Below, piece after piece: positions 59,231 through 62,395 of a DNA stretch of 64,000 nt (within the stretch, counting starts at the first letter, position 1; each line of letters starts with the position of its first letter). The position numbers and the translations under genes are program-made. The stretch covers positions 30,817 to 94,816 of the forward strand of contig CBDEUZ010000007.1 in NCBI GenBank assembly GCA_965243495.1, written 5' to 3'. The stretch is from Dehalococcoidia bacterium. GTDB taxonomy: Bacteria > Chloroflexota > Dehalococcoidia > UBA6926. The notes under the pieces were generated by a model. The model did no database searches, was not told where the DNA came from, and saw only the letters and a list, made by a program, of their open reading frames with translations.

Positions 59231-59256
59231 ATTCCGCGTTCCACAAGGAACCCACG

Positions 59257-59294
59257 GGCGGGGCGGCACAATGTGCCGCCCCGCCTTCGCTTTT
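59257..59294 (+). terminator. Rho-independent terminator
   Basis: GGCGGGGCGGCAC-AAT-GTGCCGCCCCGCC then TTCGCTTTT. Confidence 0.8.
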
Positions 59295-59436
59295 GTCCCA
59301 CTGCCCCACTCGATTGTTACAATGGTGCAGTCGTACAGGGCAGCAGAGATTGGTAATCATGGCGTCAACATCAAGACAGCGTCGCGGGATAGAGCCTACT
59401 GCGCCGAAAAAGCAAGCGTCGCAGGAGGAACAACAC

Positions 59437-59790
59437 GTGGGGGTTTTCTACTCCGAACTCACTGTCCAAAACGAGGACGGAGACCGCTCTCTGGAGCTTG
59501 AGGCTATGGTGGATACCGGGGCCAGTTTCACGATCATTCCATCTATCCTGCTGCAGTCCATTGGCATCCAACCGCATCGTTCAGTTTCAATGAGGCTCGC
59601 TGATGGCCGTCCGGTCGAATACCCGCTGGGGCGAGCGTGGATAACACTGCAAGGTGCAAGAGAGATTGCCCTCGTGGCATTCGGGGACGATAACGCTCAA
59701 CCTCTATTGGGCGCTCACACCCTTGAAAGTTTCGCTCTGGCCGCGGATCCATACAACGGGCGGCTTGTGCCGGCCAATCTGTGGGCATGA
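59437..59790 (+). CDS. Retropepsin-like (clan AA) aspartyl protease
   Basis: AMVDTGAS and LLGAHTLE flap motifs; AGGAGG SD before GTG 59437. Confidence 0.85.
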   Translation: MGVFYSELTVQNEDGDRSLELEAMVDTGASFTIIPSILLQSIGIQPHRSVSMRLADGRPVEYPLGRAWITLQGAREIALVAFGDDNAQPLLGAHTLESFALAADPYNGRLVPANLWA

Positions 59791-59806: not shown

Positions 59807-61036
59807 ATGACCTACGCAACAGCGCTCAGGTGCAAGGAATGTTCGCGGGAAACTGAGCTCCTGCCCGTCAACGTCTGTGACTTCTGTTTCGGGCCGCTTG
59901 AGGTTCAGTATGACTATGACGCAATAGCCCGCGTCATGTCCCGCGAGTCCATCAAGAGCGGGCCTCCCTCCATGTGGCGATACGCGGAACTCCTGCCTGC
60001 CGATCCAGAGAATCGTGTCGACATCAATGCCGGCCTCACTCCCCTCGTCAAAGCAGATCGGCTCGGTAAGGCGCTTGGACTCAACGAGCTCTATCTCAAG
60101 AACGACTGCGTCAACCCGACCTATTCCTTCAAGGACCGTGTCGTTTCGGTTGCTGCTACTGCCGCGCGCGACTTCGGATTTGACACGCTCGCCTGCGCCT
60201 CTACAGGCAACCTCGCCGGCTCCGTTGCTGCTCACGCCGCGCGTGCCGGAATCAGATGCTACGTCTTCATTCCTGCCGATCTCGAACTCGGCAAGGTCGT
60301 GGGGGCGGCCATCTACGGCCCTACCCTCGTTGCCGTCAATGGCAGCTATGACGACGTTAACCGCCTCTGCTCGGAGATCGCGGACCGCTACGGCTGGGCA
60401 TTCGTCAACATCAACGTGCGCCCCTACTATTCGGAGGGTTCCAAGACGCTGGGGTATGAGGCGGCAGAACAACTCGGCTGGCACGCGCCGGATCACGCAA
60501 TCGTTCCTGCCGCGTCCGGCTCCATGTTCACCAAGATCTGGAAGGGCCTAAACGAGCTTCACGACATCGGCATCATCAGCAAGCCAAAAACGAAGATGCA
60601 CATCGCCCAGGCGGAAGGCTCATCGCCCATCGTCTCCGCCTATGACGCCGGCATCAAAGACATTCGTCCCGTCCGGCCCGATACCGTTGCCAAGTCGCTT
60701 GCCATCGGCAATCCCGCTGACGGCTACTACGCGCTCAAGGTTATCGAGGAAAGCGACGGCACCGGCCATGCCGTCTCGGATGAGGAGATCGTCGATTCCA
60801 TGAAGCTCCTCGCCCAGACGGAGGGCATCTTTGCCGAGACGGCCGGTGGCGTGACCATCGGCGTTCTCCGCAAGCTGGCCGCCAAGGGTCTCATCGGAAA
60901 GGATGAGGTGACCGTCGCCTATATCACCGGAAACGGACTCAAGACGCAGGAGGCCGTACAGGACGTGGCGCAAACCGTGAACATCAATGCCTCGCTGCGC
61001 GACTTTGAGGACGCCCTTAAGGCCGAGGACGCCTGA
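59807..61036 (+). CDS. thrC: Threonine synthase-family PLP enzyme (short form with N-terminal Cys4 site)
   Basis: CKEC..CDFC; NPTYSFKDR (PLP Lys), CASTGN, EGSKT, SGSMF, TGNGLK. Confidence 0.88.
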   Translation: MTYATALRCKECSRETELLPVNVCDFCFGPLEVQYDYDAIARVMSRESIKSGPPSMWRYAELLPADPENRVDINAGLTPLVKADRLGKALGLNELYLKNDCVNPTYSFKDRVVSVAATAARDFGFDTLACASTGNLAGSVAAHAARAGIRCYVFIPADLELGKVVGAAIYGPTLVAVNGSYDDVNRLCSEIADRYGWAFVNINVRPYYSEGSKTLGYEAAEQLGWHAPDHAIVPAASGSMFTKIWKGLNELHDIGIISKPKTKMHIAQAEGSSPIVSAYDAGIKDIRPVRPDTVAKSLAIGNPADGYYALKVIEESDGTGHAVSDEEIVDSMKLLAQTEGIFAETAGGVTIGVLRKLAAKGLIGKDEVTVAYITGNGLKTQEAVQDVAQTVNINASLRDFEDALKAEDA

Positions 61037-61094
61037 TCGCGTCCCGCTGGATTCATAACCAAGCCGGAATAACCGGGAAATAACGGGGGGAACA

Positions 61095-61337
61095 ATGGCC
61101 AAAGCTCGTGTCCGTTTCACGTTCGCGTCAGAACTTATCCAAGAGCCCATCATCTGGTCTCTCGGACGTGAATTTGAGCTGGTCACAAACATCCGCCGCG
61201 CCAACGTTGAAGAAGATCAAGGCTGGGTCGTCCTTGAACTCGAGGGCGCTCAGGAAGAGATTGACCGCGGCATGGAATGGATCAAGGAAAAGGGCGTCCG
61301 CATCGACCCCGTTCCTGGAGACGTCATCGACGGGTAA
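61095..61337 (+). CDS. Stand-alone NIL domain protein
   Basis: EPIIWSLGREFELVTNIRRANV...GWVVLELEG. Confidence 0.88.
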   Translation: MAKARVRFTFASELIQEPIIWSLGREFELVTNIRRANVEEDQGWVVLELEGAQEEIDRGMEWIKEKGVRIDPVPGDVIDG

Positions 61338-61436
61338 AGCGTAGCTTCCTCCCGTACTTCGGGAATTGGAGTGCTTCCATACATTCGCGGCAGCAATTGT
61401 GCTGACAAAAGGCACACATTGTGACACTATTGATAT

Positions 61437-61724
61437 ATGGATCTGGTCTTTGAATGGAGCCCCGAGAAAGATCAGCAGCTAATTGAGCAGATAGGGGTAT
61501 CATTTGCCGACGTGGTGGAATCCATTGTCCGGGATGGCCCAGTTGATACGTATGTCCACCCCAATCAGAGGCGCTATCCGGGCCAAAGCGTGTACGTCGT
61601 AGATATACGTGATTATTTGTATCTGGTCCCATTTGTGGAGCAGGACGAAGGAAGAAGGTTCCTCAAGACAATAATCCCGAATCAGAGAGCCATGCGGAGA
61701 TATGGCAGAAGGAGTCAGCCATGA
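61437..61724 (+). CDS. BrnT-like type II toxin
   Basis: FEWSPEK, GVSF, HPNQRRYPGQ, YLVPFVE, FLKTIIP. Confidence 0.8.
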   Translation: MDLVFEWSPEKDQQLIEQIGVSFADVVESIVRDGPVDTYVHPNQRRYPGQSVYVVDIRDYLYLVPFVEQDEGRRFLKTIIPNQRAMRRYGRRSQP

Positions 61725-61996
61725 AGTATCGACTGGATGAGGAAGAGCAGGAAATCCTTGAGGCTTATGAGCGCGGCGAACTAAAGAGAGTCGCTGACCC
61801 TGAGAAGGAATTCGCGCTCGCCAAGCTAGCGGCACGCAATACACTGAAGAAATCCAAGCGAGTGACACTGCGTGTCACCGAACACGACTTCAACGTGGCT
61901 CACATTCGCGCTATGGAGGAGGGAATGCCTTATCAGACGCTGCTGTCCAGCGTCATCCATAAGTACCTTTCAGGCCGCCTGGTCGAGAAGGATTAG
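61721..61996 (+). CDS. CopG/BrnA-like antitoxin
   Basis: LDEEEQEIL acidic N-terminus; RVTLRV...EEGMPYQTLLSSVIHKY RHH domain; ATGA overlap with the toxin. Confidence 0.82.
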   Translation: MKYRLDEEEQEILEAYERGELKRVADPEKEFALAKLAARNTLKKSKRVTLRVTEHDFNVAHIRAMEEGMPYQTLLSSVIHKYLSGRLVEKD

Positions 61997-62113
61997 AATC
62001 CACGCATCCGGACTGACGGAGACGCTCCTGCTTCGTTCCGCTATAGTTATATGAAAGCGCCTGCCTAAAGGCCGCTGTTACATCTGAACCACAAACAGAA
62101 TCAAAGGAGCCAG

Positions 62114-62395
62114 TTGTCTATGCCGGTCACAGTCAAGATTCCCACGCCCCTGAGGCGCGTGACGGATGGCGTTGATGAGATTGAAGCCAGCAGTGATCGG
62201 CTAGACGGCGCGCTTGCGGTTCTCAACGAGCGCTTCCCCGGCATCAAGGAGCGCCTCTTCAATGATGAGGGCGAGCTTCATCGCTTCGTCAACATCTACG
62301 TCAACGGCGAGGATGTCCGGTTTCTCAGCGGCCTTGAAACGCCCCTCAAGGAAGGCGATGAGGTCAGCATCGTCCCCGCCGTCGCCGGCGGCTAA
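62114..62395 (+). CDS. MoaD/ThiS/CysO-family ubiquitin-like sulfur carrier
   Basis: VKIPTPLR, FVNIYVNGEDVRF, C-terminal VAGG. Confidence 0.92.
   Translation: MSMPVTVKIPTPLRRVTDGVDEIEASSDRLDGALAVLNERFPGIKERLFNDEGELHRFVNIYVNGEDVRFLSGLETPLKEGDEVSIVPAVAGG

What the first reader, a model, noticed from the sequence alone, without database searches (positions are those of the whole stretch)
59807..62395. ThrC-like + NIL + MoaD: possible sulfur-carrier-dependent homocysteine/cysteine synthesis
Seen: thrC-like gene, a stand-alone NIL domain and a GG-ending ubiquitin-like protein, co-oriented once the TA pair is removed. Established: thiocarboxylated carriers donate sulfur to PLP enzymes (CysO/CysM in Mycobacterium; HcyS in Wolinella); NIL domains occur in the MetN transporter ATPase and in the methanogen homocysteine-synthesis ferredoxin; threonine synthase acts on O-phosphohomoserine. 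Inference: this ThrC paralog may perform gamma- or beta-replacement with the carrier thiocarboxylate rather than threonine synthesis.
Basis: partly seen in the sequence, partly recalled or inferred. Interest (0 to 1): 0.6.

Follow-up and report, generated by a model that had tools for sequence, protein, structure and literature searches.

The report
MetM/MetO homocysteine genes plus NIL protein
A gene labelled "threonine synthase" in this Dehalococcoidia genome is most likely the enzyme of the MetM/MetO route published in 2024, which makes the methionine precursor homocysteine with sulfur from a small carrier protein; here it travels with a small methionine-sensor-like NIL protein that I did not find described, and a toxin-antitoxin pair has recently landed in the middle.

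Summary
On the + strand lie a zinc-ribbon ThrC paralog (59807-61036), an 80-aa NIL protein (61095-61337), a small toxin-antitoxin-like pair (61437-61996) and a GG-ended CysO-like carrier (62120-62395).

- The enzyme groups with carrier-linked enzymes from many phyla. These include SAM-riboswitch-controlled ones in Streptomyces-like genomes (55-56% identity).
- The genome has a separate hom-linked thrC, thrB, metH, a MoeB-type E1, a JAB protease and its own MoaD-MoaE fusion.
- I found no MetY/MetB, MetX or COG1900 route.
- The same-genus relative has the trio without the toxin-antitoxin pair, so that pair is a recent insertion.

The part I did not find described is the NIL protein. It lies beside MetM/MetO in 34 of 80 loci from five phyla and is fused behind the carrier's GG in three. 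It folds like the methionine-binding MetN C2 domain. Its role is inferred, not shown.

This scan has already noted the same trio in more than 150 other genomes, so this is one more instance.

The parts
59807..61036 (+). MetM-like homocysteine synthase: a ThrC-family PLP enzyme (409 aa) with an N-terminal Cys4 zinc ribbon and PLP lysine K109 in the SFKDR motif.
   Evidence: PALP 233 bits and NF006050 311 bits. 35% identical to the genome's own hom-linked ThrC. 55-56% identical to SAM-riboswitch-linked, carrier-linked enzymes in Streptomyces-like genomes. Falls inside the carrier-linked clade, SH-aLRT 95.
61095..61337 (+). Stand-alone NIL-domain protein (80 aa, no cysteine). It is the only NIL domain found in this genome.
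   Evidence: PF09383 56.5 bits. Single hit in the genome. AlphaFold model pLDDT 89 matches the MetN C2 regulatory domain at TM 0.8, rmsd 1.2-1.8 A. N32 and A36 align with MetN N295 and A299 and are nearly invariant in the family.
61437..61724 (+). BrnT-like toxin candidate (95 aa), first gene of an inserted two-gene cassette.
   Evidence: BrnT_toxin at only 14.6 bits, below the cut-off of 34.5. Overlaps the next ORF by 4 bases. Absent from this position in the same-genus genome G045 and in L094.
61721..61996 (+). BrnA/CopG-like antitoxin candidate (91 aa), second gene of the inserted cassette.
   Evidence: CopG_antitoxin at 22.3 bits, below the cut-off of 28. A homologous pair (61-64% identity) lies about 3 kb away in G045 rather than between NIL and the carrier.
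62038..62048 (+). Motif CCGCTATAGTT, 72 nt before the carrier gene's ATG. It is kept in front of the carrier gene in two relatives and may be a -10-like promoter element (inference only).
   Evidence: Unique in the window, with 0 expected by chance. Seen by eye in the same relative position in G045 and L094. The insertion lies upstream of it.
62120..62395 (+). MetO-like sulfur-carrier protein (91 aa, beta-grasp, free C-terminal GG).
   Evidence: ThiS family 63.8 bits and SAMP1/MoaD_arch models. Best solved relatives are M. tuberculosis CysO (3DWG chain C, E 2.6e-23) and the 4N6E ThiS/MoaD-family protein (E 1.1e-20). 47-52% identical to the carriers that follow the SAM-riboswitch-linked enzymes.
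59256..59286 (+). Terminator-like hairpin after the enoyl-CoA hydratase gene. It marks the likely upstream limit of the transcription unit.
   Evidence: 14-pair stem with 12 G-C pairs and a T-rich tail. This is a consensus match only.

Best explanation
The locus encodes a MetM/MetO-type route to homocysteine.

Proposed steps:
1. Homoserine kinase (thrB, elsewhere in the genome) makes O-phospho-L-homoserine.
2. The MoeB-type E1 adenylates the free Gly-Gly end of the carrier (62120-62395), which is then converted to a thiocarboxylate.
3. The ThrC paralog (59807-61036) eliminates phosphate from O-phosphohomoserine on PLP and adds the carrier thiocarboxylate at the gamma carbon.
4. Homocysteine is released, probably after an S-to-N acyl shift and hydrolysis by the JAB protease.
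5. MetH methylates homocysteine to methionine.

What is shown here is orthology, gene linkage and the genomic context. The chemistry is inferred from the published Streptomyces system and from the CysO/CysM and HcyS/MetY precedents.

The NIL protein (61095-61337) is a conserved accessory part of this system. Most likely it is a methionine-binding (or related amino-acid-binding) dimer that works on the carrier or the enzyme to match sulfur flux to methionine supply. I give that role about 0.4; it is inference only.

The BrnT/BrnA-like pair is a recent selfish insertion between NIL and the carrier and has no role in the pathway.
For: Orthology:
- The enzyme is 58-68% identical to carrier-linked enzymes in Chloroflexota, Nitrospirota, Cyanobacteria, Actinomycetota, Planctomycetia, Nitrospinota and others.
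- It is 55-56% identical to enzymes in five 7.5-9.2 Mb, 70% GC actinobacterial genomes. There a SAM riboswitch (76-81 bits) precedes the enzyme and a carrier follows it. That is the arrangement reported for S. albulus metM-metO.
- SAM riboswitches also precede the enzyme in Chloroflexota loci L126, L162 and L102.
- In the tree, the carrier-linked enzymes form one clade (SH-aLRT 95) and hom-linked ThrCs another (99).

Genome context (92% complete):
- Present: a canonical thrC after hom, thrB, metH, an E1, a Prok-JAB protease and a separate MoaD-MoaE fusion.
- Not found: real PF01053 enzymes (best hit 27 bits), MetX, HcyBio/COG1900.

NIL:
- Adjacent to the enzyme-carrier pair in 34 of 80 cross-phylum loci, in two gene orders.
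- Fused in frame behind the carrier's GG in L116, L143 and L147.
- Lies inside SAM-riboswitch-led operons in L126 and L162.
- Folds like the MetN C2 domain.
- Keeps the Asn that binds L-methionine in MetN (PMC6233128).

Insertion: the pair is absent from G045 and L094 at this site.
Against: - No biochemistry exists for this protein or for any Chloroflexota ortholog.
- I could not obtain the S. albulus MetM sequence or the Hasebe paper. The link to the characterised enzyme therefore runs through unnamed Streptomyces-like genomes and through citing papers.
- NCBIfam's thrC equivalog models score the enzyme above their cut-offs.
- A study of the Microcystis homolog reports threonine synthase and deaminase activity in vitro and no clear MetM activity (PMC12172450).
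- The E1 here lacks the rhodanese domain of MoeZ, so the sulfur donor is unknown.
- The one clear JAB protease could instead serve the MoaD-MoaE fusion.
- The genome is 92% complete, so absences are not proof.
- NIL is missing from most MetM/MetO loci (cyanobacteria, actinobacteria, two thirds of the sampled Chloroflexota), so it is not essential to the chemistry.
- Close NIL homologs also occur in unrelated contexts.
Confidence: 0.8

Rival explanations
1. The enzyme is simply a second threonine synthase (or a threonine synthase/deaminase), and its position beside the carrier has no catalytic meaning.
For: It scores above the cut-offs of the NCBIfam thrC models. All solved relatives are threonine synthases. 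The Microcystis homolog showed threonine synthase and deaminase activity in vitro (PMC12172450).
Against: The genome already has a hom-linked thrC that is only 35% identical. The enzyme's clade is tied to the carrier across many phyla, and to SAM riboswitches, which control methionine genes rather than threonine genes. No other homocysteine-forming enzyme was found, although metH is present.
Confidence: 0.08
2. The pair makes cysteine by beta-replacement on O-phosphoserine, like CysM/CysO of Mycobacterium tuberculosis.
For: The carrier's closest solved relative is CysO. In some relatives the pair lies next to a MoeB, CysO-like carrier, CysK/M and JAB cluster.
Against: The enzyme belongs to the ThrC family, not the CysK/M family. 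The genome has its own CysK/M-type enzyme two genes from the E1. In loci that hold both sets, the two carriers are distinct paralogs. SAM riboswitch control of orthologs points to methionine.
Confidence: 0.05
3. The carrier is the MoaD of molybdenum cofactor synthesis (moaA and moaC lie 6-7 kb away), and the ThrC and NIL genes are unrelated neighbours.
For: moaA and moaC are nearby on the opposite strand. The carrier also matches MoaD-family models.
Against: A dedicated MoaD-MoaE fusion exists elsewhere in the genome. The carrier scores below cut-off on the bacterial moaD model (16.7 against 66). Its position next to the ThrC paralog is conserved in phyla where moaA and moaC are not nearby.
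Confidence: 0.02
4. About NIL only: it is not a ligand sensor. It is a structural partner or chaperone of the carrier. For example, it could be a cap that keeps the GG end unavailable until a JAB protease frees it, or a docking adaptor between carrier and enzyme.
For: In three phyla NIL is translated as a C-terminal extension directly after the carrier's GG. This resembles MoaD-MoaE fusions, which need JAMM cleavage (PMC11237513). JAB genes lie in or near those operons.
Against: In most loci, including this one, NIL is a separate gene and the carrier already ends in GG. NIL keeps the MetN methionine-contact Asn. The two ideas are not exclusive.
Confidence: 0.25

Closest known systems
MetM/MetO (with MoeZ and Mec) of Streptomyces albulus: O-phospho-L-homoserine-dependent homocysteine synthesis (Hasebe et al. 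2024, Appl Environ Microbiol 90:e0124724; read only through PMC13759103 and PMC12172450)
   Same: A ThrC-family PLP enzyme is followed by a GG-ended beta-grasp carrier. The enzyme is 55-56% identical, and the carrier 47-52% identical, to the riboswitch-linked pair in Streptomyces-like genomes. An E1, a JAB protease and homoserine kinase are present in the genome.
   Different: There is no SAM riboswitch here. The E1 lacks a rhodanese domain. The carrier needs no C-terminal trimming. A NIL protein is encoded between enzyme and carrier, and the accounts of the pathway that I could read do not mention one. A toxin-antitoxin-like pair is inserted.
CysO/CysM/Mec/MoeZ of Mycobacterium tuberculosis (PDB 3DWG)
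   Same: A thiocarboxylated carrier donates sulfur to a fold-type II PLP enzyme acting on an O-phospho amino acid. The carrier here is the closest sequence relative of CysO among solved structures.
   Different: The enzyme is ThrC family rather than CysK/M family, and the expected product is homocysteine rather than cysteine.
HcyS/HcyF/HcyD/MetY of Wolinella succinogenes (Krishnamoorthy and Begley 2011, cited in PMC5764234)
   Same: Protein-thiocarboxylate-dependent homocysteine synthesis, with an E1 and a JAB hydrolase.
   Different: That system uses O-acetylhomoserine and a MetY (PF01053) enzyme. No such enzyme was found in this genome.
C2 (NIL) regulatory domain of the methionine importer ATPase MetN (PDB 3DHX, 3TUZ)
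   Same: Same fold (TM 0.8). The L-methionine-contacting Asn295 and the strand residue Ala299 are conserved as N32 and A36.
   Different: Here it is a free-standing 80-aa protein (a carrier fusion in some phyla), not the tail of an ABC ATPase. Ligand and partner are untested.
NIL-ferredoxin protein MA1822 with COG1900/DUF39 MA1821 (methanogen homocysteine synthesis from aspartate semialdehyde)
   Same: A NIL domain is genetically tied to homocysteine formation (PMC5764234).
   Different: This genome has no COG1900 protein, and the NIL protein has no ferredoxin domain and no cysteine.

Membership tests
MetM/MetO thiocarboxylate pathway | ThrC-family PLP enzyme orthologous to the characterised MetM | tested here: met
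   55-56% identity to enzymes in SAM riboswitch, enzyme, carrier operons of five Streptomyces-like genomes. One clade with them, SH-aLRT 95. Caveat: the S. albulus sequence itself was not available.
MetM/MetO thiocarboxylate pathway | Cognate ThiS/MoaD-fold carrier with a C-terminal Gly-Gly encoded beside the enzyme | tested here: met
   The carrier at 62120-62395 ends AVAGG. It is directly adjacent once the inserted pair is discounted, as in G045.
MetM/MetO thiocarboxylate pathway | E1-type adenylyltransferase/sulfurtransferase (MoeZ) in the genome | tested here: inconclusive
   One full MoeB/UbaA-type E1 of 291 aa is present (277 bits to ThiF), but it matches only the first ~275 of 392 positions of the MoeZ model. 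It therefore has no rhodanese domain.
MetM/MetO thiocarboxylate pathway | JAB/Mec hydrolase in the genome | tested here: met
   Prok-JAB protein of 161 aa, 77 bits. It is not linked to the locus and could serve the MoaD-MoaE fusion instead.
MetM/MetO thiocarboxylate pathway | Supply of O-phosphohomoserine and use of homocysteine | tested here: met
   thrB at 240 bits and a metH-type methyltransferase at 282 bits in a 1204-aa frame.
MetM/MetO thiocarboxylate pathway | Catalysis: O-phosphohomoserine plus carrier thiocarboxylate gives homocysteine | not testable with these tools
   Needs an enzyme assay.
Canonical threonine synthase (ThrC) | Sequence model match above the curated cut-off | tested here: met
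   TIGR00260 288 bits (cut-off 167) and NF006050 311 bits (cut-off 303). GapMind's authors note that MetM is often misannotated as threonine synthase for this reason.
Canonical threonine synthase (ThrC) | It is the genome's threonine-pathway copy (hom/thrB-linked, groups with characterised ThrCs) | tested here: not met
   A different 351-aa thrC follows hom. The two are 35% identical and fall in separate clades.
CysO/CysM cysteine synthesis | CysK/CysM-family PLP enzyme paired with the carrier | tested here: not met
   The enzyme matches cysM models at only about 36 bits. The genome's CysK/M-type enzyme lies elsewhere.
NIL domain (PF09383) / MetN C2 regulatory domain | HMM match, ferredoxin-like fold and conserved NI motif | tested here: met
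   56.5 bits against a cut-off of 24. Model TM 0.8 to 3TUZ and 3DHX. N32 aligns with N295.
NIL domain (PF09383) / MetN C2 regulatory domain | Binds L-methionine at a dimer interface and inhibits its partner | not testable with these tools
   Needs ITC or another binding assay.
BrnT/BrnA type II toxin-antitoxin | HMM matches to BrnT_toxin and its CopG-type antitoxin | tested here: inconclusive
   14.6 bits (cut-off 34.5) and 22.3 bits (cut-off 28). The gene order, sizes and 4-base overlap fit the family.
COG1900 + NIL-ferredoxin homocysteine route | HcyBio (PF01837) protein and a ferredoxin-fused NIL | tested here: not met
   No PF01837 hit in the genome. NIL here is a single domain without cysteine.

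The most novel reading that the evidence does not exclude
The NIL protein is a so far undescribed third subunit of the MetM/MetO system. In this reading it is a methionine-sensing dimer that binds the sulfur carrier (or the enzyme) and gates sulfur transfer. In some phyla it is made as a carrier-GG-NIL pro-protein that a JAB protease must cut, so one cleavage both frees the carrier's reactive end and releases its regulator.
Probability: 0.3. Interest if true: 0.65.

Novelty: new variant of a known kind. Interest (0 to 1): 0.42.

Why it matters
- **Annotation:** the call "threonine synthase" is probably wrong for this gene and for thousands of relatives. One search listed only the best 120 of 8000 scored hits, and the few that carry a name are all called threonine synthase.
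- **Metabolic reconstruction:** with the MetM/MetO reading, methionine synthesis in this Dehalococcoidia genome closes without MetY, MetB or COG1900. That changes predictions of auxotrophy for many uncultured Chloroflexota, Nitrospirota and others.
- **A testable lead:** the NIL protein is a small conserved partner that resembles the methionine-sensing domain of the methionine importer, is linked to homocysteine synthesis in five phyla, and is sometimes fused to the carrier's reactive end. If it senses methionine, it would be an example of feedback control exerted on a ubiquitin-like sulfur carrier.
- **Operon tolerance:** the toxin-antitoxin insertion shows that the carrier gene tolerates being split off from the enzyme and NIL genes.

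Tried and rejected
- **Complex prediction** (enzyme + carrier + NIL as the partner, each with an alignment): no verdict, score 0.00 against a mark of 0.32, controls not run. This is neither support nor evidence against binding.
I therefore could not inspect the contexts of the 50%-cluster representatives.
- **The search for related loci** with the 17-row alignment A1 found no usable conserved stretch. The 7-row alignment A2 worked.
- **Literature access:** the Hasebe et al. 2024 paper is not held, and no GapMind supplements are held. I cannot say whether NIL is mentioned there. Full-text searches linking a NIL domain to MetM/MetO, or to threonine synthase plus MoaD, found nothing.
- **SAM riboswitch in the window:** none, at either gathering or permissive threshold.
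- **"NIL replaces the riboswitch":** rejected, because L126 and L162 have both.
- **"NIL goes with rhodanese-less E1s":** not strict. The Nitrospinota loci have short E1s and no NIL. NIL has no cysteine, so it cannot carry a persulfide.
- **Longer NIL-containing proteins:** the search gave three hits whose tails look like frame read-through (Arg-rich, low complexity), so I did not count them as fusions. The real fusions were found by checking reading frames in the fetched loci.
- **Retropepsin-like ORF upstream as the carrier's protease:** unlikely. It occurs only in this genus, at 40% identity between the two genomes, and the carrier already ends in GG.
- **NIL homologs outside MetM loci:** some lie beside polysaccharide deacetylases or are fused to Gfo/Idh/MocA oxidoreductases. 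The domain is therefore not exclusive to this pathway.
Full report
**What is there**

The window has about 60% GC around the locus. It lies on the large contig C7 of a 2.27-Mb, 92%-complete Dehalococcoidia genome. A strong terminator-like hairpin at 59256-59286 closes the enoyl-CoA hydratase gene. After it, the + strand carries these genes:

| Coordinates | Gene | Key evidence |
|---|---|---|
| 59293-59790 | Retropepsin-like ORF | |
| 59807-61036 | ThrC-family enzyme, 409 aa | PALP 233 bits; thrC models above cut-off; invariant N-terminal Cys4 ribbon |
| 61095-61337 | NIL protein, 80 aa | PF09383 56.5 bits |
| 61437-61724 and 61721-61996 | Two overlapping small ORFs | BrnT and CopG-antitoxin matches, both below cut-off |
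| 62120-62395 | Beta-grasp carrier, 91 aa, ends AVAGG | |

tgt converges from the other strand. The only correction is that the carrier starts at the ATG at 62120.

**The pathway is already published**

Full-text search led to two papers that summarise Hasebe et al. 2024. In Streptomyces albulus, MetM is a threonine-synthase homolog that is "often misannotated as such". It makes homocysteine from O-phospho-L-homoserine using the thiocarboxylate of the carrier MetO, with MoeZ and Mec as helpers, and metM has an upstream SAM riboswitch. I could not read the original paper.

**Is this enzyme a MetM?**

*Paralogy.* The genome has a second thrC of 351 aa directly after homoserine dehydrogenase. It is 35% identical to the window's enzyme. 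A preprint gives a similar distance (33%) between B. subtilis ThrC and MetM.

*Orthologs in the phylum.* In 301 sampled Chloroflexota genomes the matches are bimodal. 116 genomes have one ortholog at 48% identity or more, and the other paralogs are at 42% or less.

*Orthologs across phyla.* A scan of one genome per species returned 80 loci at 58-89% identity. They come from Chloroflexota, Nitrospirota, Cyanobacteria, Actinomycetota, Planctomycetia, Omnitrophota, Nitrospinota, Syntrophaceae and Aquificaceae. In most of them a carrier gene follows the enzyme.

*Link to Streptomyces.* 111 of 251 sampled Actinomycetota genomes have an ortholog. In the five largest carriers (7.5-9.2 Mb, 70-71% GC) the order is SAM riboswitch (76-81 bits), enzyme (55-56% identity), carrier (47-52% identity). 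This matches the published S. albulus layout. SAM riboswitches also precede the enzyme in two Acidimicrobiia/Actinomycetes MAGs and in Chloroflexota loci L126, L162 and L102.

*Tree.* A maximum-likelihood tree puts all 32 rows that I labelled as carrier-linked in one clade (SH-aLRT 95). The window's protein falls inside a Chloroflexota subclade (97), and hom-linked ThrCs sit apart (99). Two of the 32 rows, L153 and L161, had no carrier in the fetched stretch.

**Does the genome need it?**

- Present: thrB, a metH-type gene, two MetE-like hits, one full MoeB/UbaA-type E1 without rhodanese, one clear Prok-JAB protein and a CysK/M-type enzyme two genes from the E1.
- Not found: real PF01053 enzymes, meaning MetY, MetB, MetZ or MetC (best hit 27 bits); MetX; COG1900/HcyBio.
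- The genome is incomplete, so these absences are "not found" rather than proof.
- Molybdenum cofactor synthesis has its own MoaD-MoaE fusion.

**The NIL protein**

*Distribution in the phylum.* It is the only NIL domain in the genome. Homologs at 60-99% identity and exactly 80 aa are abundant in Chloroflexota metagenomes. In the 301-genome sample, by my hand tally, NIL lies within 1.5 kb of the enzyme in 39 of the 116 ortholog-bearing genomes and 2-7 kb away in 3 more. The usual order is enzyme, NIL, carrier. In 20 NIL-less loci the carrier directly follows the enzyme in 15.

*Distribution across phyla.* NIL is adjacent in 34 of the 80 loci:

| Group | Loci with NIL adjacent |
|---|---|
| Chloroflexota | 21 of 32 |
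| Nitrospirota | 10 of 10 |
| Syntrophaceae | 1 locus |
| Planctomycetia | 1 locus |
| Omnitrophota | 1 locus |
| Cyanobacteria, Actinomycetota, Nitrospinota | none |

In six of the ten Nitrospirota loci the order is CysK, MoeB, enzyme, carrier, NIL, MoeB, JAB. A seventh stops at the contig end after the second MoeB. In the other three a second ThrC paralog follows NIL.

In L116, L143 and L147 the carrier and NIL form one ORF, with 6-25 linker residues directly after the carrier's GG. Such a product must be cut after GG before the carrier can be activated.

*Fold and conserved residues.* The predicted NIL structure (pLDDT 89) superposes on the MetN C2 regulatory domain (TM 0.8; the best hit is the selenomethionine-soaked form). 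N32 and A36 align with MetN N295 and A299 and are nearly invariant in the family. N295 hydrogen-bonds the bound L-methionine, and N295A abolishes binding (PMC6233128).

*Limits.* NIL homologs also occur next to polysaccharide deacetylases and fused to Gfo/Idh/MocA oxidoreductases, so the domain is a portable module. A complex prediction gave no verdict. The role of NIL as a methionine-responsive partner of the carrier or enzyme is inference.

**The inserted pair**

The same-genus genome G045 keeps the whole neighbourhood (FBPase, ECH, Asp protease, enzyme at 96% identity, NIL at 86%, carrier at 97%, tgt), with only 80 bp between NIL and the carrier. A homologous toxin-antitoxin pair (61-64% identity) lies 3 kb away there. 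L094, whose enzyme is 89% identical, also lacks the pair at this site. The insertion sits upstream of the motif CCGCTATAGTT, which is retained before the carrier gene in all three genomes.

**Comparison and verdict**

This works like, and by the testable criteria belongs to, the MetM/MetO system. It differs from the described system in four ways: an extra conserved NIL gene, a rhodanese-less E1, no riboswitch at this locus, and a mobile insertion. The pathway itself is known. The NIL association is what I did not find described.

This scan has already recorded the same trio in more than 150 genomes, so this window adds one more instance. Here I also checked the carrier-NIL fusion for myself and documented the recent toxin-antitoxin insertion.

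**Unpublished genomes**

Some tallies include genomes flagged as unpublished:
- G038 (also locus L043), G227, G272 and G173.
- G453, G323, G306, G544, G531, G425, G353, G479 and G387.

Only counts rest on them, and no conclusion depends on any one of them.

Noticed in passing
window 59293-59790 (+): Retropepsin-like (clan AA, VDTGAS motif) single-domain protease ORF ending 16 bp before the enzyme gene, just after a terminator-like hairpin. It appears to lead the transcript. It occurs at this position only in this genus, and the two copies are just 40% identical while the flanking genes are 89-96% identical.
   Followed up: partly
G000:C7:1147150-1147353; L017:1492-1788 (-): A third ThiS/MoaD-family protein (98 aa, 52% identical to the window's carrier) whose GG is followed by two extra alanines, so it would need trimming. 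It lies directly next to msrB and msrA.
   Followed up: partly
L006:1054-3321 (-) and L007:1096-3254 (-) (G000:C7 around 474000 and 1846000): Two separate three-gene sets of Prok-E2_D, a weak Prok-JAB and a short ThiF-family E1. These are bacterial ubiquitin-like conjugation cassettes unrelated to sulfur transfer.
   Followed up: partly
L015:1066-1743 (-) (G000:C7 around 1686750): MoaD-MoaE fusion protein (225 aa) with GG at the junction, next to a cytochrome c oxidase subunit II gene. It would need JAMM-type cleavage, as reported for Deinococcus.
   Followed up: no
L112, L114, L115, L121, L123, L170 (Nitrospirota; a similar but incomplete set in L154): A seven-gene cluster of CysK, MoeB, enzyme, carrier, NIL, MoeB and JAB puts the whole thiocarboxylate machinery, with two E1 genes, in one place. 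L088, L090 and L101 (Chloroflexota) place the enzyme-carrier pair beside a MoeB, CysO-like carrier, CysK/M and JAB set.
   Followed up: partly
P0310, P0354, P0359, P0360, P0370; P0307, P0348, P0382: More distant zinc-ribbon ThrC-family proteins (37-41% identity) carry C-terminal PadR domains or LeuA allosteric/dimerisation domains. This shows that the subfamily repeatedly acquires regulatory modules.
   Followed up: no
L070:8486-9778 (-), L073:8431-9684 (-); L062, L063, L069, L072: Close NIL homologs (47-58% identity) are fused to the C-terminus of Gfo/Idh/MocA oxidoreductases, or stand alone in front of polysaccharide deacetylase genes, in other Chloroflexota.
   Followed up: partly
L054:4501-5059 (-) (G045): The same-genus genome carries a homologous BrnT/BrnA-like pair (61-64% identity) about 3 kb from the carrier gene, at a different site. 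This suggests that the cassette moves locally.
   Followed up: no
L209:3132-4523 (-) and L210:2860-3414 (-): In two actinobacterial MAGs a NIL-containing ORF lies 6-8 kb downstream of the SAM riboswitch, enzyme and carrier operon. In L209 the NIL domain is the C-terminus of a 464-aa open frame, which I guessed to be a MetN-type transporter ATPase but did not check.
   Followed up: no
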